NCBI GenBank assembly: GCA_964637115.1
Contig: CAZWVL010000001.1
Location: 91,105 to 155,104 of the forward strand
Length of the DNA stretch: 64,000 nt
Direction: 5' to 3'
From: an uncultured Methanosarcinales archaeon
GTDB lineage: Archaea; Nanobdellota; Nanobdellia; Woesearchaeales; ARS49
Both the position numbers and the translations under genes were made by a program. Shown one piece after another: positions 2,779 through 49,567 of the stretch. The notes under the pieces are model-generated. The model was not told the DNA's origin, made no database searches, and saw nothing but the letters and a program-made list of their open reading frames with translations. Every line of letters starts with the position of its first letter. The stretch's first letter is position 1.

Positions 2779-2864
2779 TGTCCACTGGACAAGTTCTCGC
2801 ATAAGCTTTTTATAGCGTCTGTAAGATTAGAGTGGTAGAACAACAGCTATTAATTATTTTCAAT

Positions 2865-5800
2865 ATGGAAAATAATAAAACATTGACGTGGAAAGAGAAA
2901 CCAAATACGGCAGCAGAAGTAGATACAATACTCACACCAACAGTCAAAAAATGGTTTTATTCCAGATTTCCAAACTATTCTTTGCCACAGCTGTATGGCG
3001 TTCTTGAGATACATTCACGCAACAACATCATTGTTTCAGCGCCTACAGGTGCAACAAAGACACTAACTGGATTTCTTTCTATTTTAAACGAGCTTGTTGA
3101 CTCAGCAGAAAAAGGAGTTTTGCAAGACAAAGTTTATGCGGTCTATATTTCACCTTTGAAAGCACTGTCAAACGACATTTCCAAGAACTTGAAAGAACCG
3201 CTTGAACAAATAGAACAAATTGCCGGCAAAAGTTTAGGCATTCGAGTTGGTGTTCGCACAGGCGATACAACTGCCACAGAGAAAAGCAAGATGCTCAAGC
3301 ATCCGCCGCACATTTTAATCACTACGCCAGAAAGTTTGTGCATAATGATGACCTCTATGAAGTTCAGAGAGCATCTGAAAGGAGTAGAATGGTGCATTGT
3401 AGACGAAATACACGCGCTTGCAGAAAACAAAAGAGGAGTAGACCTTTCTTTATCACTCGAACGCCTGCAGCACTTGTCTGCTGGAATGTGCAGGATAGGT
3501 CTTTCAGCAACAGTAGCGCCAATAGACCAAATTGCGCAGTACCTTGTCGGCAATGGAAGATCATGCAAGATAATAGAAATTCAGTTCTTGAAGAATTTAG
3601 ACTTGAAAGTGCTTTCTCCTGTTGACAATTTAATTGACACGCCCCACGGTATTGCCCACCACGCGATGTACACGCTCATTGACGAATTAATCCAGCAGCA
3701 CAAGACAACACTGGTGTTTACTAACACACGTGCAGCAACTGAGCGCGTTGTAGATCACCTGAAAACACGATTTCCGAGCAAATATGTAGGAAACATTGGA
3801 GCGCATCACGGCAGCATGAGCAAAAGAATGCGTCTTGAAATCGAGGATAAACTACGAAAAGGAGAATTGAAAGCAGTTGTCTGCTCAACATCACTCGAAC
3901 TGGGCATTGACATTGGTTACATTGACTTAGTTATTTGCCTTGGCTCTCCAAAATCAGTTGCAAGATTCCTTCAAAGAGCCGGCAGAAGCGGGCACAAACT
4001 CCACGAAACAGTCAAAGCACGCATAATCGTAATGGACCGAGATGATTTAGTTGAATGTGCAGTATTATTGAAAAGCGCCATAGAGAAGAAAATAGACAAA
4101 GTACACATTCCTTGTAATGCACTTGACGTTCTTGCGCAACAATTATTGGGAATGGCGCTGGAAGAGGTCTGGGAAGAAAAAGAGCTCTACAAAGTCGTAA
4201 AACAAAGCTACTGCTACAAAGACCTGAAACTGAACGATTTCAACCAAATTCTCAGCTATCTTGCAGGAGAGTTTGTAGATCTTGAAGACAGACACATCTA
4301 TGCAAAGATTTGGCGCCAAGACGGCAAAATAGGAAAGAAAGGCAAGATGACAAGAGTCATCTACATGATGAATATCGGCACGATTCCAGACGAATCGTTC
4401 ATCACCGTAAAAGTAGGCACGGAAACAGTCGGCATGCTCGACGAAGGATTTGTAGAACGAATGAAACCAGGCGATGTGTTTGTACTTGGTGGAGACACGT
4501 ACATGTTCAAGTTCACCCGCGGAATGGTGGCGCAAGTCTCAACTTCCGTGAATAGGCCCCCGACAGTACCCCGCTGGGCTTCAGAAATGCTGCCATTAAG
4601 CTTTGACCTGGCAAATGAAATTGGCAGATTCAGACGATTAATGATGGAGAAGTTCACATCCGGCGAGAATAAAGCAGCCATTCTGAAATTCATCAATGAA
4701 CATTTGTATGTCGATGACAAAGCAGCAAATGCCATCTATGAATATTTCAAAGAACAATACGATTACTGCAAGAAGATACCCAGCGACAAAACAATTCTGA
4801 TCGAATATTATGTTGATGAGCGCGATCAAAAAATAATCTTTCATTCCCTGTTTGGCAGGCGAGTCAATGATTGTTTGAGCAGAGCAGTCGCGTTCGCGCT
4901 TTCAAGAACAGAACACAAAGATGTTGAGTTAGGAATGAACGACAACGGCTTTTACATTAATGGAACCAGGAAACTGAACCCGATAAAAGCAATCAAACTA
5001 CTCAAAGCAGACAAGTTAAACATGGTGATGAGCACTGCTATAGAAAAAAGCGAAGTTTTCAAAAGGCGCTTCAGGCACTGCGCGACACGTTCACTAATGA
5101 TATTGCGCAATTACATGGGACATCAGAAAAGAGTAGGAAGGCAGCAGGTAAGCTCGATGATATTGATGAGCGCATTAAAACAACTTGATCCGGAATTTGC
5201 AATTCTCAATGAAGCAAAAAGAGAATGTTTGGAAGACGTGATGGACATCGAGAATACAAAAAAAATATTGCACGGCATTGAAGACGGCACAATCAAACTT
5301 GTTGAGATAGAAACAAAGATTCCATCTCCATTCGCTTTGAATTTGGCGCTTATGGGTTATATGGACGTGTTGCGTATAGAAGACAAATATGAATTCCTGC
5401 GCAGGATGCACGAGCAGATTCTGGCGAAAATCTCCGGCAAGGAAGCAAAAGCAGTCAGCGGAAGCTCATTTGTAGAAAAATCACGTGGAGAACGCAATGA
5501 ATTCAAAGAAATCTTGAAACGAGAAGCATGGAATTTGAAAAAAGTTCCAAAATTCGCCAAAGCAGAGCTCGTGCGCGTTATTGACGGCGAACGAAGCAAC
5601 ATAGACCCGCGATTTATTGAGGGCATCAACACATACCGCGCCGAAATTGAAGCGAACTGGCCTGAAGAGCTGAAAAAGTTTTTATTTACTGTTTTGAACG
5701 ACCTGAAAACAGGAGATTTCTCCTACCAAGACTTTTGGAATGAAGAAAGCGCAAAAGAAGAAGAAAAAGTAGAGTTAGAGAAGCAGGAACTATTTGAGCA

Positions 5801-5999
5801 GTTCAACGAAGCAGCGAAAAGAGCAAAATTAGACCCGCAAATACGCTATGACGTCTACAAGATGATTGCAGGAGACAAGGAAGGCTTCAGAGATGATACT
5901 TTAAAATGGCTCAAACAGCTGTTCTCCAAAACAGTTTCGTCAATGTGGAAGGACGATATAGCCAAGTTTTTACAGAAAAAATTAAAAGAGCTGGCATAA
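2865..5999 (+). CDS. lhr: Lhr-family SF2 ATP-dependent helicase with an extra C-terminal tandem helical repeat
   Basis: Motif I SAPTGATKT, SPLKAL, VRTGDT, DEIH, GLSAT, HHGS, LELGIDIG and QRAGRSGH; downstream Lhr winged-helix and domain 4 (FGRRVN, SPFA). Confidence 0.93.
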   Translation: MENNKTLTWKEKPNTAAEVDTILTPTVKKWFYSRFPNYSLPQLYGVLEIHSRNNIIVSAPTGATKTLTGFLSILNELVDSAEKGVLQDKVYAVYISPLKALSNDISKNLKEPLEQIEQIAGKSLGIRVGVRTGDTTATEKSKMLKHPPHILITTPESLCIMMTSMKFREHLKGVEWCIVDEIHALAENKRGVDLSLSLERLQHLSAGMCRIGLSATVAPIDQIAQYLVGNGRSCKIIEIQFLKNLDLKVLSPVDNLIDTPHGIAHHAMYTLIDELIQQHKTTLVFTNTRAATERVVDHLKTRFPSKYVGNIGAHHGSMSKRMRLEIEDKLRKGELKAVVCSTSLELGIDIGYIDLVICLGSPKSVARFLQRAGRSGHKLHETVKARIIVMDRDDLVECAVLLKSAIEKKIDKVHIPCNALDVLAQQLLGMALEEVWEEKELYKVVKQSYCYKDLKLNDFNQILSYLAGEFVDLEDRHIYAKIWRQDGKIGKKGKMTRVIYMMNIGTIPDESFITVKVGTETVGMLDEGFVERMKPGDVFVLGGDTYMFKFTRGMVAQVSTSVNRPPTVPRWASEMLPLSFDLANEIGRFRRLMMEKFTSGENKAAILKFINEHLYVDDKAANAIYEYFKEQYDYCKKIPSDKTILIEYYVDERDQKIIFHSLFGRRVNDCLSRAVAFALSRTEHKDVELGMNDNGFYINGTRKLNPIKAIKLLKADKLNMVMSTAIEKSEVFKRRFRHCATRSLMILRNYMGHQKRVGRQQVSSMILMSALKQLDPEFAILNEAKRECLEDVMDIENTKKILHGIEDGTIKLVEIETKIPSPFALNLALMGYMDVLRIEDKYEFLRRMHEQILAKISGKEAKAVSGSSFVEKSRGERNEFKEILKREAWNLKKVPKFAKAELVRVIDGERSNIDPRFIEGINTYRAEIEANWPEELKKFLFTVLNDLKTGDFSYQDFWNEESAKEEEKVELEKQELFEQFNEAAKRAKLDPQIRYDVYKMIAGDKEGFRDDTLKWLKQLFSKTVSSMWKDDIAKFLQKKLKELA

Positions 6000-6007
6000 A
6001 ATCATAT

Positions 6008-6883
6008 ATGATGATCACTGTAGTGGGTGCAGGCAAGTTCGGGCAGGCTATTTCCAAATTACTTGGCCAGAACAAGCACCAAATGGTAGACGTAGAGAAA
6101 GACGGTACGTATTCTTCTGATACTGTTGAAAAAATCAAGAAATCAGACAAATTAATCATATGCGTGCCAAGTCCCTTTTTGCAGGATTGCACAAACATGC
6201 TCTCAGGCATAATCAAGCCGGACGCAAAAATACTTTCCTGCACAAAAGGCATTTATGACAATTTGAAAACACCATCAGAAATTATCAAAGAACAACTTGC
6301 AAACCCGGTTGCGGCATTAATGGGGCCAAATCTTGCAGCCGAAATAATGCAAAACAAGCCGGCAATAGCAGTCATTGCAGGAGACAATTCACACGAATGG
6401 GCAAGCTACTTTAACAGCACAACATTCAAAGCAATTGCTGAAACAGACATTGTCGGAATAGAATTCGGTGGAGCAATCAAGAACGTTGTTGCTTTAGGAG
6501 CAGGATTGCTTGACGGATATTATGAAAAGGACACTTGCAACTCAATGGGAAGTTTTGTGGCATTTGCATTGCGCGAAATACAGCATTTGTATGAACACAA
6601 ATCAAGCTCAACAATACCAGAATTAAGTTTTATCGGCGATTTATTTGCAACCTGCATGTCAGAAAATTCCAGAAACCACCAGTTTGGACACCAATTCGGC
6701 AGTGTTTTGCGGGAAGGAAAGCCAACACCAAAGCCGGAGCAGACAGTTGAAGGATATAGGACGTTGCAAATTGTGCAAACATATGCTGAGAAAAACAAGA
6801 TAACAATGCCGACGATAACTGCACTATACAATGTATTCTTCAGAAATGGAAAAATTGAGAATATCATAGAGAGTTGGAGATAA
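6008..6883 (+). CDS. gpsA: NAD(P)H-dependent glycerol-3-phosphate dehydrogenase (bacterial GpsA type)
   Basis: VVGAGKFG Rossmann loop, MGPNLAAEI, EFGGAIKNVVALGAG (catalytic Lys), GDLFATC-x-SENSRN and TVEG. Confidence 0.9.
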   Translation: MMITVVGAGKFGQAISKLLGQNKHQMVDVEKDGTYSSDTVEKIKKSDKLIICVPSPFLQDCTNMLSGIIKPDAKILSCTKGIYDNLKTPSEIIKEQLANPVAALMGPNLAAEIMQNKPAIAVIAGDNSHEWASYFNSTTFKAIAETDIVGIEFGGAIKNVVALGAGLLDGYYEKDTCNSMGSFVAFALREIQHLYEHKSSSTIPELSFIGDLFATCMSENSRNHQFGHQFGSVLREGKPTPKPEQTVEGYRTLQIVQTYAEKNKITMPTITALYNVFFRNGKIENIIESWR

Positions 6884-6885
6884 AA

Positions 6886-8049
6886 ATGTATACGAAAATA
6901 TTAGCAACGGCAAGTTACGTTCCTGAAACCAGACGCACAAATGCAGATTTGGAAAAAATGGTTGATACAACAGATGAATGGATAATGGACCGTGTTGGCA
7001 TAAAAGAAAGACGAATATCCAAACCACACGAAAGCCATGCGTTCATGGCAACACAATCGGTAATGAAAGTTGTTGAAAAAGCAGGCATACATCCAAGACA
7101 AGCAAGCATAATTCTAACAGGAAACACGCACGTACAAGGACTAATACCGCCAAAATCGCCCCAATGGGCGCTGGGGCCAAACATGGCAGCATATGATGTC
7201 GTTGCGGACAACACGAGCGGTATTGTTGAGTCAGCAAGAAACCTTTTCAGAACACTTTCAATACGAGGGGACACCAGCTATACAGGAGAAGTAAGCGGAC
7301 AGCTTGGACAAGGAGTAATTTATCATCACCAGCAAACAGGCCTTTCACAAGTCATAGCCAAAGAACTTGGAATGAACTCAAAATTCTCATTCGACGTAAT
7401 AACGGGCTGCGCCTCATTCAATTATGGATTAGCCCTCGCAGACACTCTTGTAAAAAAAACATATCCAGAATACGTTGTAGTAGCGGCTGTTGACAAATTG
7501 CTTGGCATCACAAATCCGAAAGACAGGTCAACAATCATATTATTTGGAGAGCTGGCAGGAGCAGCACTGATTGGACCAAGCAAGCAGGAAGGATTCATAT
7601 CACACCACTTAGAAACAGAAGGCAAGCTAAAAGACACGATAGCGATAAAACAAGAGCCGGGATGGGACAAGCCATACTTCTGGCAGGACGGCAAGGCAGT
7701 TTACAAGTGGGCAGTGCCAAAAATAGTTGAACTGACACGAAAAGCTGTTGAAGAAACACGCGACATTGGCGGCAACAGATTGTTTATAGTTCCCCACCAG
7801 GCAAACCCGCGAATGGTTGAAACGGCAAAAAAGAATACTGTTTTCAAAAATGTCTATGCAACCATTGTAACAGGAGACATGTTCGGAAACAGCTCGACAG
7901 CCTCCATAGCACACGCGCTTGATGTGTTATTGACAGAAGGCGTGCAGGTCAACGGCCACAAAGCAAAACCAGAAAAAGGCGACTACATCGGCATACTTGG
8001 ATTTGGAGCGGGATTGTCGTCAGCTGTCAATGTGTACCGCTGCGCTTAA
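6886..8049 (+). CDS. fabH: 3-oxoacyl-ACP synthase III (KAS III) family protein with an internal insertion
   Basis: N-terminal SYVPE...TNADLEKMVDTTDEWIMDRVGIKERRI; Cys-His-Asn triad GCASF / PHQAN / GNSSTAS; C-terminal GFGAGLS. Confidence 0.88.
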   Translation: MYTKILATASYVPETRRTNADLEKMVDTTDEWIMDRVGIKERRISKPHESHAFMATQSVMKVVEKAGIHPRQASIILTGNTHVQGLIPPKSPQWALGPNMAAYDVVADNTSGIVESARNLFRTLSIRGDTSYTGEVSGQLGQGVIYHHQQTGLSQVIAKELGMNSKFSFDVITGCASFNYGLALADTLVKKTYPEYVVVAAVDKLLGITNPKDRSTIILFGELAGAALIGPSKQEGFISHHLETEGKLKDTIAIKQEPGWDKPYFWQDGKAVYKWAVPKIVELTRKAVEETRDIGGNRLFIVPHQANPRMVETAKKNTVFKNVYATIVTGDMFGNSSTASIAHALDVLLTEGVQVNGHKAKPEKGDYIGILGFGAGLSSAVNVYRCA

Positions 8050-8079
8050 TTTATAAACTGTTAATTGTCAATTCAATAA

Positions 8080-9273
8080 ATGAATATTAAGTTCAATATT
8101 CCTTTAATGTATGCAATTGCGTCTTTGATGTGGGCGCGATTCTTCCTTCCCGTGCTTGCATTATTCTATATTGCATCTCAAGTGTCCATTGAACAATTCA
8201 CTATCATCATGGGCGCGTTTGCGCTCGCGAACTTCATTCTTGAAATTCCAACCGGCGTTATTGCTGACTTGATTGGAAAGAAAAAGACACTTTTGATAGG
8301 ACGCTCCATGTATGTTATTGAAATTTTGATAATTGCATTTATGAATGGCTTCTGGCCTTTTCTTATTGCAAAAGTTATCAGTGGTATTGCCGTTAGTTTT
8401 GTCTCCGGAGCAAATGAAGCGATGCTCTATGACACTCTGAAAAAGCAGGGGAGAGTCCACGAACACAAGAAAGTCACGGGCATTATGTTCACGCTCACCA
8501 ACATATCAATGGCATTTGTGTTCATTATTGGCGCTTATTTGTTCTCAATCAACAATAAATTGCCTGCGTTCGTGTCGTTGCCTTTTATCGTCGTTGGCGT
8601 CATACTCACCTGCTTTTTGCAGGAACCTTACAAAAGCAAAAAGAAGGCGACGTTTACAAATGCCTGGCTCCACTTCAAAGAAGGATTGGCGTGTGTCCGG
8701 CACAACCCTGTCCTGAAATACCTCATCGCGTTCTCCATGGTTATCGTAGCACTTATTGACATTAACACGTCCGTCTCATCGGCTTATTTCGAGAAGATTC
8801 TCATTCCAGTAGCATATATCGGCGCGGTTGCATTTGCCGCAAGTATGCTCATTGCATTAGTAAGCAGAAAAGTTCACACGCTCGAACACCGAATCGGAGA
8901 CAAGCGCAGCCTTCAATTGATACTCGCGCTCATGATACTCGGTATGCTGCTCATGTCGTTGCTTATTCAATATTATGGCGTTTTGTTTTATTTCATTATC
9001 TCAATATCTGTTGGCTTCTATTTCGTCCTTGTCAATCATTATGTCAATGTGCACGTTGACACGGCACATCGCGCAACAATAATTTCTATAAAGCACATGG
9101 CGGTCCAACTGGCCGCATTTCTTCTGTTTCCGATGTTCGGACATGTTACGAAGAAATATTCGATGGGAACCGCATACTGGGCATTCGGCATATTTTTAGT
9201 TGCATATTCAGTATTCTTGTATTTGTATTCACGTAATATAAAAATAGGTGGATTAAACGAGAAAACTGCTTAA
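8080..9273 (+). CDS. MFS transporter
   Basis: About 12 hydrophobic segments; MFS motif A EIPTGVIADLIGKKKT; SGANEAMLYD; RATIIS. Confidence 0.9.
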   Translation: MNIKFNIPLMYAIASLMWARFFLPVLALFYIASQVSIEQFTIIMGAFALANFILEIPTGVIADLIGKKKTLLIGRSMYVIEILIIAFMNGFWPFLIAKVISGIAVSFVSGANEAMLYDTLKKQGRVHEHKKVTGIMFTLTNISMAFVFIIGAYLFSINNKLPAFVSLPFIVVGVILTCFLQEPYKSKKKATFTNAWLHFKEGLACVRHNPVLKYLIAFSMVIVALIDINTSVSSAYFEKILIPVAYIGAVAFAASMLIALVSRKVHTLEHRIGDKRSLQLILALMILGMLLMSLLIQYYGVLFYFIISISVGFYFVLVNHYVNVHVDTAHRATIISIKHMAVQLAAFLLFPMFGHVTKKYSMGTAYWAFGIFLVAYSVFLYLYSRNIKIGGLNEKTA

Positions 9274-9293
9274 AACAAAATACTGCAAAGAAA

Positions 9294-9737
9294 TCAGCGA
9301 TTATCAGGCCGAGATGATTCTGCGTTTATTTTATCATCAATCGTGACAGACTCTCCTGTAATTTCCTGCGCCTTTTGTTCTACCACGTTTTTATATTTCA
9401 TCATATAATCCAAAACATTTTTTTTGCGCTTCTTGACAGGAGCTGTTTGAACAAAATTGTCAGAACTAGGAATCATTTCTACCGCAGTCCTAAGTGTTGC
9501 GTTAATTCCAAATCCAAGAGCGATTACAAAAGGCACTGCAACCATATACCAGCGCTTGCCAATGGCTGTCTCGTACACAAAATTCGCTGTTGCTTTGTAC
9601 GCACGCGCAACTGAATCAACCGTAACGTTGGCATATCTTGTTACATCATTATGAAATTTCTCAGCATCAACACCTAAGAATATCGACTCTTCGTGAGGTT
9701 TCCACTCTCTGCCTCCTGTGTAAATCCCTGTCTTCAC
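9294..9737 (-). CDS. Hypothetical single-pass membrane protein
   Basis: 147-aa ORF with one hydrophobic stretch (WYMVAVPFVIALGFGI). Confidence 0.6.
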   Translation of the reverse strand: MKTGIYTGGREWKPHEESIFLGVDAEKFHNDVTRYANVTVDSVARAYKATANFVYETAIGKRWYMVAVPFVIALGFGINATLRTAVEMIPSSDNFVQTAPVKKRKKNVLDYMMKYKNVVEQKAQEITGESVTIDDKINAESSRPDNR

Positions 9738-15898: not shown

Positions 15899-16231
15899 AT
15901 GAACGTCAGAGTATTAACCTGGAACAAACCGCGCGTGCCGACAGAAGAAGAACTGCGCGTGCAAATGGTAAAAGAAGGCATGAATCCGGTTGTTGAAGTC
16001 ATGGACAAAAATGAGTTTACGGAAGTCCACTCGCACAAAACAGACGAAACACGCATATTAGTCAAAGGAAGCGTAGAATTCTGCGCAGAAGGAAGAAGCT
16101 ATGTTTTGAAACCAGGAGACAGGATAGACTTGGAAGCAAATACGGCACATACAGCAAAGAATCTGGAAAGAGGGCAGTCAGTGATGCTTTGTTCTACCAA
16201 AGGAAAGACGGTTGCGATAGAAATTTACTGA
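15899..16231 (+). CDS. Cupin-domain protein
   Basis: HSHKTDE (motif 1) and LKPGDRIDLEANTAHTA (motif 2). Confidence 0.9.
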   Translation: MNVRVLTWNKPRVPTEEELRVQMVKEGMNPVVEVMDKNEFTEVHSHKTDETRILVKGSVEFCAEGRSYVLKPGDRIDLEANTAHTAKNLERGQSVMLCSTKGKTVAIEIY

Positions 16232-17337
16232 TACGTTTCTCTGAGCGCCTTTAAAACAAACTCATCGGGAACTTCGGTTGCATACCCTCCTTTAAAATCA
16301 CACATTTCCCCAATATGTTTTGCCAGCGCGTATCGAGCTTTTCCCTGACGCGCCTTTTTGTCAAGTATTGTTGCCTTTTTAAGTTCGTCAATAGAAATTT
16401 CTGAATGAATTGTTGTCGGCTGACCAAAACGCTTCAACAACACTTCCTCGCGTGCCAATTCTTCCAGCGAGAAAAAGCCCATTTCAATAGCCATCCTGCC
16501 CTCGGCCTGCAGTCCAATGGAAACCGCTTCACCGTGCATCAGATTTCCATATTTCCTTTGTTCCAGCACGTGCCCCACAGTGTGCCCATGATTCAGTATT
16601 TGTCGCAACGCCGTTTCTTCTGGATCAAGCTCGACAACTGTTCCCTTAATGATCGCATTCTCCTTTGCACAATAGATTAAAGTTTCACGATCTTTTGCAA
16701 GAATCTTGTCAACATTCTGTTCCAAAAAGCCAAAAAAGTCAGCACTCCTGATAACTCCGTGCTTAACCCATTCCGCAATACCTTCACGATAGGAGCGCTC
16801 AGGCAGTGTTTCAAGCGTTGCAACATCAACGTAAATTCTTTTCGGCTGCTGAATCTGGCCATACCTGTTTTTTGCCTTTTTCGAATTGACTCCGGTCTTG
16901 CCCCCAATGGCTGCATCAGCCTGCGCAGCAGTTGATGTTGGGAACAATACGCAAGGCACTCCACGCGCATATGTAGCTGCCAGAAAACCGCCTAGGTCAG
17001 TAACCACACCTCCACCAACGCAGCAAACAACAGAATCTCTTCCAAAGCCCTCAGCGTCCATCTGATCGCCGATAGTCTCGTATGTCGCCAGCTGCTTATT
17101 TTCTTCTCCTGCAGGAAAATCAAAAATGTGCGCTTTAATACCCTCATTTCTCAAAGCAGAAGCCAACTTCTCGGCATACGGCTTTACATTTGAATCGGTT
17201 ATGATAGCGTGCTTAAACCCATATTTCAGTTCTGCCAGCTCACGCGCGGCCCGCTCGAAAAGATTAACTCCAACAACAATGTCATAAGAATCCTTGCCCA
17301 GCTCCAGTCGCATGACGTCATCTTTGATTGTGACCAT
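16225..17337 (-). CDS. aroB: 3-dehydroquinate synthase (sugar-phosphate cyclase superfamily)
   Basis: GEENK, GGGVVTDLGGF, AQADAAIGGKTGVN, KN, AEWVKHG, LNHGHTVGH, HGEAV, DKK. Confidence 0.85.
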   Translation of the reverse strand: MVTIKDDVMRLELGKDSYDIVVGVNLFERAARELAELKYGFKHAIITDSNVKPYAEKLASALRNEGIKAHIFDFPAGEENKQLATYETIGDQMDAEGFGRDSVVCCVGGGVVTDLGGFLAATYARGVPCVLFPTSTAAQADAAIGGKTGVNSKKAKNRYGQIQQPKRIYVDVATLETLPERSYREGIAEWVKHGVIRSADFFGFLEQNVDKILAKDRETLIYCAKENAIIKGTVVELDPEETALRQILNHGHTVGHVLEQRKYGNLMHGEAVSIGLQAEGRMAIEMGFFSLEELAREEVLLKRFGQPTTIHSEISIDELKKATILDKKARQGKARYALAKHIGEMCDFKGGYATEVPDEFVLKALRETYQ

Positions 17338-17407
17338 TCTGCTGACGATTTGAGCAACATTTATAAACATTTATCGACTTCAACGTAATGATTAATGGGG
17401 TGAAAAT

Positions 17408-48094: not shown

Positions 48095-49567
48095 ATGCCA
48101 ACAGAAGAAGAACTCATAGCAGAACGCAAGAGAAAAAGAGAAGAACTCTTGAAATTGGGAATTAATCCTTATCCTTACAAATACGAGCCGACGCACAAGT
48201 CAAACGAGCTTCTTGACAAGTACAAAGGATTGCAGCCTGAACAAAGAACTACTGATACAGTGAAAGTTGCGGGAAGAATTGTTGGTCTTAGAAGAATGGG
48301 CAAAGCGACATTCATGCACTTGCTTGACCAAAACGGAAAAGTGCAGATTTATTTCAAGTTTGATGACATTCCTAAGATTTACGAACAATTGAAACTAATG
48401 GACCTGGGAGACTGGTTAGGTGTTGAAGGAACAGTTTTCAAAACAAAAACAGGCGAGATAACAGTCTGGGCGAATAATTTTGAGATTCTCTGCAAAGCAC
48501 TGCGCCCGCTGCCAGAGAAATGGCACGGACTAACTGACATTGAACAAAGGTACAGAAAAAGATACGTTGACTTGTTTGTAAACCCGGAAGTGCGCAAGAC
48601 ATTCTTCCAACGCACTAAGATACTTAATTCACTTAGGAATGAACTTGACAAAAGAGGATTCCTTGAAGTTGAAACACCAATCCTCCAGCCAATTTATGGT
48701 GGAGCTGCCGCAAAACCGTTTAAGTCGCACTTGAACTCATTAAAAATGGACGTTTTTTTAAGAATTGCGCCAGAGTTGTATTTGAAACGATTGATTGTCG
48801 GCGGAATTGAACGGGTCTATGAGATAGGTAAGCTCTTCCGCAACGAAGACATAGACAGGACACATAATCCGGAGTTTAGTTCTATTGAAATTTACCAAGC
48901 ATATGCAGACTTTAATGACGTAAGAGTACTTACCGAAGACCTATGGGTGGCAGCTGCAAAAGCAATTCATGGAAGCACAAAGTTTGAATTCCAAGGACAA
49001 GTCATAGATGTAAAAAAGCCATGGCAAACCTACACGATGGTGGAAGCACTGAAAAAGTTTGCAGGCATTGATTCTGAAAAGTTAACAATGCAGGACATGA
49101 ACAAACTCTGTCAGCAGCACAAGTTGCAAGTTGTTGCCAATCCGTCAAAAGGACAGTTAATTCAAGCCCTATTTGAAGAACTTGTTGAAGATAAACTAAT
49201 ACAACCAACATTCATCACACACCATCCTGTAGAAAGCACGCCTTTATGCAAACCGTGCAGAGAAGACCACCTGAAAGAACACTTTATTGAACGTTTTGAA
49301 GGATACATAGCAGGCATGGAAATAGCAAATGCATACTCAGAATTAAATGATCCAGTGTTGCAAAGATCACTTCTTGAAGCGCAGGCAAAAGAACTCCGCG
49401 CAGGCAGCGAAGAAGCACACCCAATGGACGAAGACTTCATCGAAGCAATAGAATACGGAATGCCGCCAACCGGCGGCTTTGCCATCGGACTAGACAGAAT
49501 GATAATGCTCCTGACAAACAATCCAAGCATTAGAGACGTACTATTTTTCCCATTTATGAAACAGTGA
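48095..49567 (+). CDS. lysS: Lysyl-tRNA synthetase, class II
   Basis: OB-fold N-terminus, YRKRYVDL, LEVETP, RIAPELYLKRL, FRNEDIDRTHNPEF, EYGMPPTGG. Confidence 0.97.
   Translation: MPTEEELIAERKRKREELLKLGINPYPYKYEPTHKSNELLDKYKGLQPEQRTTDTVKVAGRIVGLRRMGKATFMHLLDQNGKVQIYFKFDDIPKIYEQLKLMDLGDWLGVEGTVFKTKTGEITVWANNFEILCKALRPLPEKWHGLTDIEQRYRKRYVDLFVNPEVRKTFFQRTKILNSLRNELDKRGFLEVETPILQPIYGGAAAKPFKSHLNSLKMDVFLRIAPELYLKRLIVGGIERVYEIGKLFRNEDIDRTHNPEFSSIEIYQAYADFNDVRVLTEDLWVAAAKAIHGSTKFEFQGQVIDVKKPWQTYTMVEALKKFAGIDSEKLTMQDMNKLCQQHKLQVVANPSKGQLIQALFEELVEDKLIQPTFITHHPVESTPLCKPCREDHLKEHFIERFEGYIAGMEIANAYSELNDPVLQRSLLEAQAKELRAGSEEAHPMDEDFIEAIEYGMPPTGGFAIGLDRMIMLLTNNPSIRDVLFFPFMKQ

What the first reader, a model, noticed from the sequence alone, without database searches (positions are those of the whole stretch)
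6008..8049. Bacterial-type lipid genes gpsA (G3P dehydrogenase) and fabH (KAS III) tightly coupled in an archaeon
The two genes are 2 nt apart and both retain catalytic motifs. Canonical archaeal lipids use G1P (EgsA) and isoprenoid ethers, whereas GpsA supplies G3P and KAS III primes acyl chains for bacterial ester lipids (established). Co-transcription suggests a route to G3P/acyl-based or hybrid lipids, or an acyl-CoA condensation unrelated to membranes (inference). An MFS transporter follows on the same strand.
Basis: partly seen in the sequence, partly recalled or inferred. Interest (0 to 1): 0.65.

Follow-up and report, generated by a model that had tools for sequence, protein, structure and literature searches.

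The report
Short GpsA plus orphan FabH-like pair
A tiny uncultured archaeon (Woesearchaeota) really does carry a shortened glycerol-3-phosphate dehydrogenase next to a remodelled bacterial-type FabH enzyme. The rest of its genome shows that the pair cannot start fatty-acid synthesis, and it more likely serves lipid assembly from scavenged parts, a trait already reported in outline for this group.

Summary
**Observation: confirmed.**
- Window 6008-6883 encodes a 291-aa GpsA-family enzyme. Window 6886-8049 encodes a 387-aa FabH/KAS III-family enzyme. They are 2 nt apart and all catalytic residues are intact.
- The setting is a 1.27-Mb DPANN (Woesearchaeota-type) genome. The join is not chimeric.

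**Both proteins are unusual clades.**
- The GpsA lacks about 25 residues of the N-domain and sits on a very long branch.
- The FabH-like protein carries a 60-90-aa insert and falls outside all standard FabH sampled.

**Genome census (98% complete).**
- Absent: EgsA, GGGPS, DGGGPS, GGPPS, the MVA and MEP pathways, ACP, FabD/F/Z/I, acetyl-CoA carboxylase, thiolase and beta-oxidation.
- Present: PlsB-like and PlsC-like acyltransferases, CarS, PgsA, and a second CDP-alcohol transferase.

**Reading.**
- GpsA is the only recognisable G3P source. It probably feeds PgsA and the acyltransferases, using scavenged lipid parts.
- The FabH-like enzyme cannot prime a fatty-acid synthase. Its substrates are unknown.

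**Conservation.**
- The pair is co-inherited in part of the clade.
- Each gene also occurs alone in relatives, always in a variable slot usually just downstream of the Lhr helicase gene.
- The MFS gene is not conserved.

**Verdict:** Bacterial-type lipid genes in Woesearchaeota are already published. The two divergent clades and the ACP-less FabH are new details.

The parts
2832..5999 (+). Lhr-type large helicase. It is the conserved upstream neighbour, 8 nt before gpsA.
   Evidence: NF010338 scores 1144 bits, above the 849 cut-off. It lies upstream of gpsA and/or the fabH-like gene in L003-L006, L092-L095, L107 and G159.
6008..6883 (+). Short GpsA-family NAD(P)H-dependent glycerol-3-phosphate dehydrogenase (291 aa). 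About 25 residues of the N-domain are deleted.
   Evidence: - Pfam N, C and GPD_NAD_C_bact domains match.
- Catalytic K80, K158/N159, D211, T215 and R222 are invariant.
- The AF2 model has pLDDT 92.9.
- The best fold match is T. maritima GpsA 1Z82, TMq 0.82.
- It forms its own clade of 43 rows, support 100, stem 1.86.
6876..6879 (+). GGAG Shine-Dalgarno-like motif inside the 3' end of gpsA, 6 nt before the fabH-like ATG.
   Evidence: Read directly from the sequence. Its function is inferred.
6886..8049 (+). FabH/KAS III-family condensing enzyme (387 aa) with intact Cys175-His304-Asn335.
   Evidence: - Pfam ACP_syn_III and ACP_syn_III_C match.
- The profile scores 245 bits against E. coli FabH structures.
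- The AF2 model has pLDDT 93.5 and pTM 0.94.
- Foldseek's best match is FabH, TMt 0.87-0.90.
7147..7380 (+). Family-specific insert in the FabH-like protein, about residues 88-165. It precedes the strand that carries Cys175 and is predicted as extra strands plus a helix.
   Evidence: - Alignments A1 and A2 show it.
- It is present in all 24 family members and absent from all standard FabH.
- Predicted elements are E100-107, H111-120, E121-127, E132-135 and E140-149, with pLDDT 77-94.
8080..9273 (+). MFS transporter (efflux-type). It is not a conserved partner of the pair.
   Evidence: - MFS_1 scores 116 bits, with only weak Tet/DHA-like hits.
- It is absent after the pair in L003, L005, L006 and L106.
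- It is present after gpsA alone in L094.
- E. coli GlpT gives no hit.
9294..9737 (-). Small gene of unknown function. It marks the downstream border of the variable slot.
   Evidence: There is no Pfam match. A convergent gene of 128-159 aa sits at the same position in L003, L005, L092, L093 and L095.

Best explanation
These are two intact genes, co-inherited in part of a clade of DPANN (Woesearchaeota-type) archaea. They sit in a variable slot usually found downstream of the Lhr helicase gene.

**1. The short GpsA.**
- Shown: all DHAP-binding and catalytic residues, the fold, and an NAD(P)-binding Rossmann core are kept.
- Inferred: it reduces DHAP (from the genome's TIM) to sn-glycerol-3-phosphate.
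- It is the only recognisable G3P source in a cell that encodes no G1P dehydrogenase and no GGGPS or DGGGPS. The cell also has no isoprenoid pathway, fatty-acid synthase or beta-oxidation.
- Inferred consumers of G3P:
  - PgsA, for the head-group step. It lies in an operon with CarS.
  - The PlsB-like and PlsC-like acyltransferases, for the backbone step.
- On this reading the cell assembles or remodels phospholipids from acyl or lipid parts scavenged from a host or the environment.

**2. The FabH-like protein.**
- Shown: the Cys-His-Asn triad, the CoA adenine sandwich (W32/R214) and Arg309 (E. coli R249) are conserved.
- So it is a KAS III-type Claisen condensing enzyme.
- It must work on CoA thioesters or imported thioesters. 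No ACP is encoded in this genome or in the six relatives searched, four of which carry the FabH-like gene.
- No malonyl-CoA source was found in this genome, so it cannot prime a type II synthase.
- It is an accessory, fast-evolving gene. Its product is most likely a beta-ketoacyl thioester of unknown fate. This step is the weakest part of the explanation.
For: **Genes and motifs.**

**Folds.**

**Census of the own genome (98% complete).**
- Two PF01553 acyltransferases: one PlsC-like, one like the PlsB catalytic domain.
- No GGGPS; the only hit is TIM.
- No EgsA; the only hit is AroB.
- No ACP.
- The single UbiA is decaprenyl-phosphate phosphoribosyltransferase-like, not DGGGPS.
- No thiolase.
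- No PlsX/Y, FabD/F/Z, AccA-D, IspA or CdsA. E. coli FabI hits only the FabG-like SDR, weakly (33 bits).
- No FadA/B/D/E.
- No Dxr, IspG or IspH.
- No HMGR.
- No GlpK/F/D/Q/T.
- CarS and two CDP-alcohol transferases are present. One of the transferases reaches the PgsA equivalog cut-off, 129 > 109.

**Relatives.** All six have acyltransferases and none has ACP.

**Pair adjacency.**
- It is kept down to 36% FabH-like identity.
- Divergence of the two genes is correlated: Spearman 0.95, n = 10.
Against: - No enzyme assay, lipid analysis or transcript exists. The three metatranscriptome runs from one of the two source studies hold none of the sequence.
- Each gene occurs alone in relatives, so they are not obligate partners.
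  - gpsA only: L092-L094.
  - fabH-like only: L095, L107, L108, G159.
- No acyl-CoA ligase of the FadD type was found. Only a weak PaaK-like ligase and an ADP-forming CoA-ligase alpha-like gene lie next to the PlsC-like gene. How scavenged acids would be activated is therefore unclear.
- The PlsB-like and PlsC-like proteins score far below the equivalog cut-offs.
- A decarboxylating condensing enzyme with no encoded malonyl donor is unexplained.
- The long GpsA stem and the deletion could mean a changed substrate or cofactor.
Confidence: 0.5

Rival explanations
1. First reader's main reading. GpsA plus FabH start de novo synthesis of bacterial-type G3P fatty-acyl ester lipids, with KAS III priming acyl chains.
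For: - Both enzymes are catalytically intact.
- Acyltransferases and one FabG-like SDR exist.
- Other Woesearchaeota are reported to carry FabG, FabI, FabZ and G3P dehydrogenase (PMC10936187, PMC8204110).
Against: - No ACP, FabD, FabF/B, FabZ, acetyl-CoA carboxylase, thiolase or crotonase/ACAD is found in a 98%-complete genome. The only FabI match is the FabG-like SDR itself, at 33 bits.
- Six relatives also lack ACP.
- The SDR is unlinked and scores equally as a glucose dehydrogenase.
Confidence: 0.04
2. The adjacency is positional only. Both genes are independent accessory cargo in a variable slot downstream of Lhr. GpsA serves head-group or redox needs. The FabH-like enzyme makes an unrelated small molecule, for example a polyketide-like, signalling or cofactor precursor, as BioZ, PqsD or NphT7-type KAS III enzymes do.
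For: - The same slot holds gpsA alone, the fabH-like gene alone, toxin-antitoxin genes or an MFS gene in relatives.
- L108 has the fabH-like gene elsewhere without gpsA.
- The FabH-like protein evolves much faster than GpsA and the flanks: 30% identity against 76-77% for Lhr and SOD in G159.
- Intergenic gaps are short everywhere in this genome.
Against: - gpsA-then-fabH order and adjacency persist from 64% down to 36% FabH-like identity, also where Lhr is not upstream (L106).
- The divergences are tightly correlated.
- A GGAG lies in the gpsA 3' end and the gap is 2-3 nt in three lineages.
Confidence: 0.27
3. The FabH-like protein is not a condensing enzyme. It is a KAS III-fold acyltransferase (CerJ/ChlB6/DpsC-like chemistry) that loads an acyl group from acyl-CoA onto G3P, DHAP or a lyso-lipid, replacing PlsY or PlsX.
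For: - It follows the only G3P-forming enzyme.
- PlsX and PlsY are absent.
- No malonyl donor is encoded, which fits chemistry that needs none.
- The CoA-binding residues are kept.
Against: - His304 and Asn335, needed for decarboxylative condensation, are invariant in 24 divergent members. That known KAS III-fold acyltransferases usually lose part of the triad is from memory and was not tested here.
- A PlsB-like acyltransferase already exists.
- The nearest structures and sequences are genuine FabH, not the acyltransferase-type relatives.
Confidence: 0.07
4. NphT7-like acetoacetyl-CoA synthase that replaces the missing thiolase at the start of a mevalonate pathway.
For: No thiolase is present in the genome. 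The protein is in the KAS III family and has CoA-binding residues.
Against: No HMG-CoA reductase, no IspA-type prenyl diphosphate synthase and no acetyl-CoA carboxylase for malonyl-CoA.
Confidence: 0.02
5. Assembly artefact or bacterial contamination: a bacterial fragment mis-joined into an archaeal bin.
For: Both families are typically bacterial.
Against: - GC is uniform across the window.
- The flanks are lineage-typical and syntenic in many independent assemblies.
- A single contig of an independent run spans gpsA, fabH and MFS with 0 mismatches.
- Both proteins form clades found only in DPANN-type contexts.
Confidence: 0.01

Closest known systems
Bacterial GpsA (NAD(P)H-dependent sn-glycerol-3-phosphate dehydrogenase, EC 1.1.1.94), e.g. 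Thermotoga maritima TM0378 (PDB 1Z82). Also the archaeal Archaeoglobus fulgidus GpsA (1TXG).
   Same: - Same two-domain fold: TMq 0.82 to 1Z82 and 0.81 to 1TXG.
- GxGxxG is present, and all substrate and catalytic residues are invariant: TKG Lys, KN, D..T, SRN.
   Different: - It is about 40 residues shorter. A 25-residue block after strand 2 of the Rossmann domain (the ...LW.R....N..YLPG... segment) is deleted.
- It is at most 36% identical to any standard GpsA, including those of other Woesearchaeales.
- It is separated from them by a stem of about 2.5 substitutions per site.
- It scores below every NCBIfam gpsA cut-off.
Bacterial FabH (beta-ketoacyl-ACP synthase III, EC 2.3.1.180), e.g. E. 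coli FabH (PDB 1EBL, 1HN9).
   Same: - Same fold, TMt 0.87-0.90.
- The profile scores 245 bits.
- Kept residues: the Cys-His-Asn triad, W32, R36, R151 (CoA binding), R249 and K214 (ACP docking patch), G305.
   Different: - A 60-90-aa insert lies before the strand that bears the active-site Cys.
- Family-specific changes: F87 to I/V/L, M207 to Q, L205 to F, A111 to G.
- The score is below the TIGR00747 cut-off.
- No ACP, FabD or ACC is encoded in the genome.
- The family lies outside the clade of 75 standard FabH, support 100.
Bacterial-type lipid genes reported in Woesearchaeota and other DPANN: GpsA, PlsC, FabG/I/Z, MEP pathway (Coleman et al. 2019, PMC6431249; Castelle et al. 2021, PMC8204110; Zhang et al. 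2024, PMC10936187).
   Same: Same host group and the same general phenomenon: G3P dehydrogenase and acyltransferases in an archaeon that lacks the G1P pathway.
   Different: - This genome has no MEP pathway and no FabZ, and only a weak FabI match to the FabG-like SDR.
- Its GpsA is not the common Woesearchaeal clade.
- gpsA is not next to plsC here.
- FabH was not named in the passages I read.
Archaeal ACP-independent fatty-acid synthase of Sulfolobus acidocaldarius: ketothiolase/DUF35, SDR, dehydratase, enoyl reductase (bioRxiv 10.1101/2024.07.05.601840).
   Same: Condensation would have to run on CoA thioesters, without ACP.
   Different: No thiolase is present. No dehydratase or enoyl reductase was found. 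The condensing enzyme here is KAS III-type, not a thiolase.

Membership tests
GpsA (NAD(P)H-dependent G3P dehydrogenase) | Pfam NAD_Gly3P_dh_N and NAD_Gly3P_dh_C domains above gathering score | tested here: met
   85.3 bits against 23.1, and 111.4 bits against 25.
GpsA (NAD(P)H-dependent G3P dehydrogenase) | Curated NCBIfam gpsA equivalog/subfamily cut-off | tested here: not met
   The best is NF000942 at 186.5 bits against a cut-off of 257. All 14 gpsA models score below their cut-offs.
GpsA (NAD(P)H-dependent G3P dehydrogenase) | Nucleotide-binding GxGxxG and the DHAP-binding/catalytic residues (Lys of TKG, Lys-Asn, Asp, Thr, Arg of SRN) | tested here: met
   GAGKFG is present. K80, K158, N159, D211, T215, R222 and N223 are invariant across short and standard GpsA.
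GpsA (NAD(P)H-dependent G3P dehydrogenase) | Full-length N-terminal domain | tested here: not met
   A 25-residue block is deleted in all of the roughly 47 clade members. The model still folds as a compact Rossmann domain, pLDDT 92.9.
GpsA (NAD(P)H-dependent G3P dehydrogenase) | DHAP to sn-G3P activity | not testable with these tools
   Needs an enzyme assay or complementation of an E. coli gpsA mutant.
FabH / KAS III (EC 2.3.1.180) | ACP_syn_III and ACP_syn_III_C domains, thiolase fold | tested here: met
   57.7 and 39.7 bits, both above cut-off. Foldseek TMt is 0.87-0.90 to FabH structures.
FabH / KAS III (EC 2.3.1.180) | Curated fabH cut-off (TIGR00747 / NF006829) | tested here: not met
   218 bits against 292.1, and 228 bits against 249.
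FabH / KAS III (EC 2.3.1.180) | Cys-His-Asn catalytic triad | tested here: met
   C175, H304 and N335 are present in 24 of 24 family members.
FabH / KAS III (EC 2.3.1.180) | Acyl-CoA primer site (E. coli W32, R36, R151) | tested here: met
   W is present in 21 of 24, R in 19 of 24 and R in 21 of 24. The window protein has all three.
FabH / KAS III (EC 2.3.1.180) | Malonyl-ACP as extender: ACP, FabD and a malonyl-CoA source encoded | tested here: not met
   - No PP-binding protein in the own genome or in six relatives.
- No FabD or AccA-D.
- The docking Arg (E. coli R249) is nevertheless kept in 20 of 24.
Bacterial phosphatidic-acid and PG pathway (GpsA, PlsB or PlsX/Y, PlsC, CdsA, PgsA) | G3P acyltransferase and lyso-PA acyltransferase | tested here: inconclusive
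   There are two PF01553 proteins above the Pfam cut-off. They score far below the plsB cut-off (59 against 618) and the AGP_acyltrn cut-off (53 against 103).
Bacterial phosphatidic-acid and PG pathway (GpsA, PlsB or PlsX/Y, PlsC, CdsA, PgsA) | CdsA and PgsA | tested here: inconclusive
   PgsA is met: TIGR00560 at 129.1 bits, above 109.1. CdsA is absent. The archaeal homologue CarS is present instead: PF01864 at 95.5 bits, NF003114 at 131 against 148.
Archaeal ether-lipid core pathway (EgsA, GGGPS, DGGGPS, GGPPS, MVA) | Presence of the core enzymes | tested here: not met
   - The EgsA search hits only AroB.
- The GGGPS search hits only TIM.
- The UbiA protein is DPPRS-like.
- No IspA-type synthase and no HMGR.
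-.

The most novel reading that the evidence does not exclude
The insert-bearing FabH clade is a new kind of KAS III that works in cells with no acyl carrier protein and no encoded malonyl donor. It is co-inherited with a truncated GpsA.

It could do one of two things:
- Use thioesters taken from a host. The ACP-docking arginine is conserved although no ACP is encoded.
- Catalyse a new condensation or acyl transfer that joins an acyl chain to the G3P or DHAP made next door.

Either would give these DPANN archaea a private step for building G3P-based lipids from scavenged material.
Probability: 0.12. Interest if true: 0.75.

Novelty: new variant of a known kind. Interest (0 to 1): 0.4.

Why it matters
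Whether any archaeon builds G3P-based or acyl-containing membrane lipids bears on the 'lipid divide' and on how DPANN cells obtain their membranes.

- **A sharp, testable case.** This genome has lost every recognisable route to G1P, isoprenoids and fatty acids. It keeps a G3P-forming enzyme, acyltransferases, CarS and PgsA.
- **A puzzle for enzymologists.** The orphan FabH-like enzyme has an intact triad, no ACP and no malonyl source.
- **A caution.** The presence of 'fabH' and 'gpsA' annotations in an archaeal bin is not evidence for bacterial-type fatty-acid synthesis.

Tried and rejected
- **Rfam and tRNA scans of the window.** Nothing found.
- **Fe-ADH_2 hit as EgsA.** Rejected; it is AroB, TIGR01357 at 312 bits.
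- **PcrB hit as GGGPS.** Rejected; it is archaeal TIM.
- **UbiA as DGGGPS.** Rejected; it is decaprenyl-phosphate phosphoribosyltransferase-like.
- **The search for related loci with the broad alignment A2.** Failed for lack of a conserved stretch. It worked with A3.
- **Insert as an internal duplication.**
  - HMMER aligned E. coli FabH residues 85-110 to two places of the family profile.
  - A direct alignment of the two segments scores no better than shuffles: 19 against a mean of 18.
  - The duplication is therefore not shown.
- **Transcript evidence.** The three metatranscriptome runs listed, all from one of the two source studies, hold none of the words.
- **First ORF extraction for L063 and L064.** It took the wrong strand. 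G159 was re-examined on the whole contig.
- **MFS as a G3P transporter.** E. coli GlpT gives no hit.
- **Model coordinates.** They are not available in the Python box. The position of the insert relative to the dimer interface and acyl pocket could not be measured.
Full report
**1.

- The + strand carries four closely spaced ORFs:
  - an Lhr-type helicase at 2832-5999;
  - a 291-aa GpsA-family protein at 6008-6883;
  - a 387-aa FabH-family protein at 6886-8049;
  - an MFS transporter at 8080-9273.
- The FabH-like start is ATG 6886, because every homologue begins M(F/Y)(T/S)KIL. This leaves a 2-nt gap after the gpsA stop. A GGAG lies at 6876-6879.
- Pfam domains of both proteins pass the gathering scores. 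All curated NCBIfam gpsA and fabH cut-offs are missed, so both are divergent members.
- Catalytic residues are intact.
  - GpsA: GAGKFG, K80, K158-N159, D211, T215, R222-N223.
  - FabH-like: C175, H304, N335.

**2. The host is an archaeon and the join is real**

- The window is C1:91105-155104 of a 1.27-Mb, 27-contig genome rated 98% complete.
- An archaeal-type TIM lies on the same contig. An archaeal PCNA and a CarS lie elsewhere.
- Close relatives of both proteins are titled Candidatus Woesearchaeota archaeon. Earlier notes of this scan reached the same placement.
- Eight sediment metagenome runs from two studies hold the stretch.
- A single contig of run X3 covers 5970-9500 without a difference.
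- GC content is uniform. Chimerism and contamination are rejected.

**3. Both proteins belong to unusual clades**

*GpsA*
- About 47 clusters of roughly 290 aa share 49-87% identity. The next hits are standard 330-aa GpsA at about 31%.
- In a tree the short clade (43 rows) has support 100 and a stem of 1.86.
- GpsA of other Woesearchaeales form a separate clade nested among standard GpsA.
- The difference is a 25-residue deletion after the second strand of the Rossmann domain, plus small loop losses.
- The AF2 model is confident (pLDDT 92.9). It matches T. maritima GpsA with TMq 0.82.

*FabH-like*
- About 17 clusters were found among 5.8 billion proteins, and about 16 representatives at 50% identity.
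- All are 370-430 aa and carry a 60-90-aa insert before the strand that holds the active-site Cys.
- The model is confident, including the insert (pLDDT 93.5, pTM 0.94).
- The best structural and sequence matches are genuine FabH, not specialised KAS III relatives.
- In a tree, the 75 standard-length FabH form a clade with support 100 and branch 0.66. This clade includes those of six other Woesearchaeales genomes and excludes the insert-bearing family.
- In the residue census the family keeps the triad (24/24), the CoA-binding W32, R36 and R151, and the ACP-docking R249 (20/24).
- The family has its own substitutions: F87 to I/V/L, M207 to Q, L205 to F, A111 to G.

**4. Genome-wide lipid census**

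| Gene or pathway | Result |
|---|---|
| EgsA | absent; only AroB hits |
| GGGPS | absent; only TIM hits |
| DGGGPS | absent; the one UbiA is DPPRS-like |
| IspA-type prenyl synthase | absent |
| HMG-CoA reductase | absent |
| Dxr, IspG, IspH | absent |
| ACP | absent |
| FabD, FabF, FabZ, AccA-D, PlsX, PlsY, CdsA | absent |
| FabI | only a 33-bit match to the FabG-like SDR |
| Thiolase | absent |
| FadA/B/D/E | absent |
| GlpK/F/D/Q/T | absent |
| PlsC-like acyltransferase, followed by a weak PaaK-like ligase and an ADP-forming CoA-ligase alpha-like gene | present |
| PlsB-catalytic-domain-like acyltransferase | present |
| CarS-PgsA operon (PgsA above its equivalog cut-off) | present |
| Second CDP-alcohol transferase | present |
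| UppS | present |
| One generic FabG-like SDR, unlinked | present |

Six relatives all have PF01553 acyltransferases and none has ACP.

**5. Synteny and distribution**

| Arrangement | Where seen |
|---|---|
| gpsA then fabH-like, adjacent (gaps 2-58 nt) | window, L003/4, L005, L006/7, L096, L106 |
| same, inferred from equal contig lengths | six short contigs |
| gpsA alone | L092, L093 (after PIN/MazE genes); L094 (Lhr-gpsA-MFS) |
| fabH-like alone | L095, L107, G159 (directly after Lhr); L108 (elsewhere, near a CarS gene) |

- Identities of the two proteins to the window's copies co-vary: Spearman 0.95, n = 10.
- The FabH-like protein diverges faster, 36-64% against 51-87%.
- In G159 it is 30% identical, while the flanking Lhr and SOD are 76-77%.
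- Across 301 genomes of the order, any FabH homologue occurs in 9 and any GpsA homologue in 67.
- The MFS gene is not a conserved partner.

**6. Interpretation**

*GpsA (fairly secure by inference)*
- It is the only recognisable source of G3P.
- Two kinds of G3P consumers are encoded: PgsA for the head group, and PlsB/PlsC-like acyltransferases for the backbone.
- The cell cannot make G1P, isoprenoid chains or fatty acids. It must therefore build its membrane from scavenged parts, as is generally assumed for DPANN.

*FabH-like (unresolved)*
- Its conserved triad says decarboxylative Claisen condensation, and its CoA site says an acyl-CoA primer.
- There is no ACP, no malonyl-CoA source and no elongation enzymes. 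It cannot prime a fatty-acid synthase.
- A mevalonate-feeding NphT7-like role is excluded by the lack of HMGR.
- An acyltransferase role, an unrelated small-molecule role and use of host-derived thioesters remain possible.

**7. Novelty**

- G3P dehydrogenase, PlsC and Fab genes in Woesearchaeota/DPANN are published (PMC6431249, PMC8204110, PMC10936187).
- Several earlier notes of this scan describe related loci.
- Three details are new here:
  - this GpsA is a separate, truncated, long-branch clade;
  - the FabH-like protein is a separate insert-bearing clade with no carrier protein in any of the genomes checked;
  - the two are co-inherited in a variable slot usually found next to Lhr.
- This is a new variant of a known kind. 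It is of moderate interest, with a low-probability but interesting biochemical upside.

Noticed in passing
window 16225-17370 (-): A full-length 3-dehydroquinate synthase (AroB, TIGR01357 at 312 bits, above the 305 cut-off) in a 1.27-Mb DPANN genome. It is syntenic in relative L094.
   Followed up: partly
G000 C2:94178-95187 (-): CarS (CDP-archaeol synthase family) overlaps a PgsA-equivalog gene by 7 nt, in a genome that has no GGGPS, DGGGPS or EgsA. The question is what lipid CarS activates.
   Followed up: partly
G000 C2:140249-143632 (+): A PlsC-like acyltransferase is followed by a 487-aa protein with weak PaaK/FlxY-like ligase similarity, and then by an ADP-forming CoA-ligase alpha-like protein. 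This is a possible acyl-activation and acyl-transfer operon.
   Followed up: partly
window 5999 and 6811-6948: Assembly graphs of runs X3, X5 and X7 branch at the Lhr/gpsA junction. One loose end encodes an alternative gpsA start, MIVIVGA. The graphs of X1, X5 and X7 also break at both ends of a 138-nt unitig covering the gpsA/fabH junction, which suggests co-existing strains.
   Followed up: no
L092 and L093, just upstream of gpsA: PIN, or MazE plus PIN, toxin-antitoxin-type genes sit between Lhr and gpsA in two relatives. This marks the slot as a variable region.
   Followed up: no
L065-L070 (genomes G120, G082, G237, G026, G234, G076): Other Woesearchaeales carry standard-length FabH homologues that fall inside the ordinary FabH clade. 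These are acquisitions separate from the insert-bearing family.
   Followed up: partly
L014, L015 (CAYSMN01, CAZDUA01): Two MAGs that carry the pair are titled 'uncultured Methanosarcinales archaeon'. Their gene content and synteny match the Woesearchaeota relatives, so the label looks wrong.
   Followed up: no
G000 C12:10382-11272 (-): The only UbiA-family gene resembles decaprenyl-phosphate phosphoribosyltransferase (NF008977 at 211 bits), a cell-envelope arabinan-pathway enzyme of actinobacteria.
   Followed up: no
window 48095-49567 (+): The lysyl-tRNA synthetase is the class II bacterial type (TIGR00499 at 590 bits), another bacterial-type housekeeping gene on this archaeal contig.
   Followed up: no
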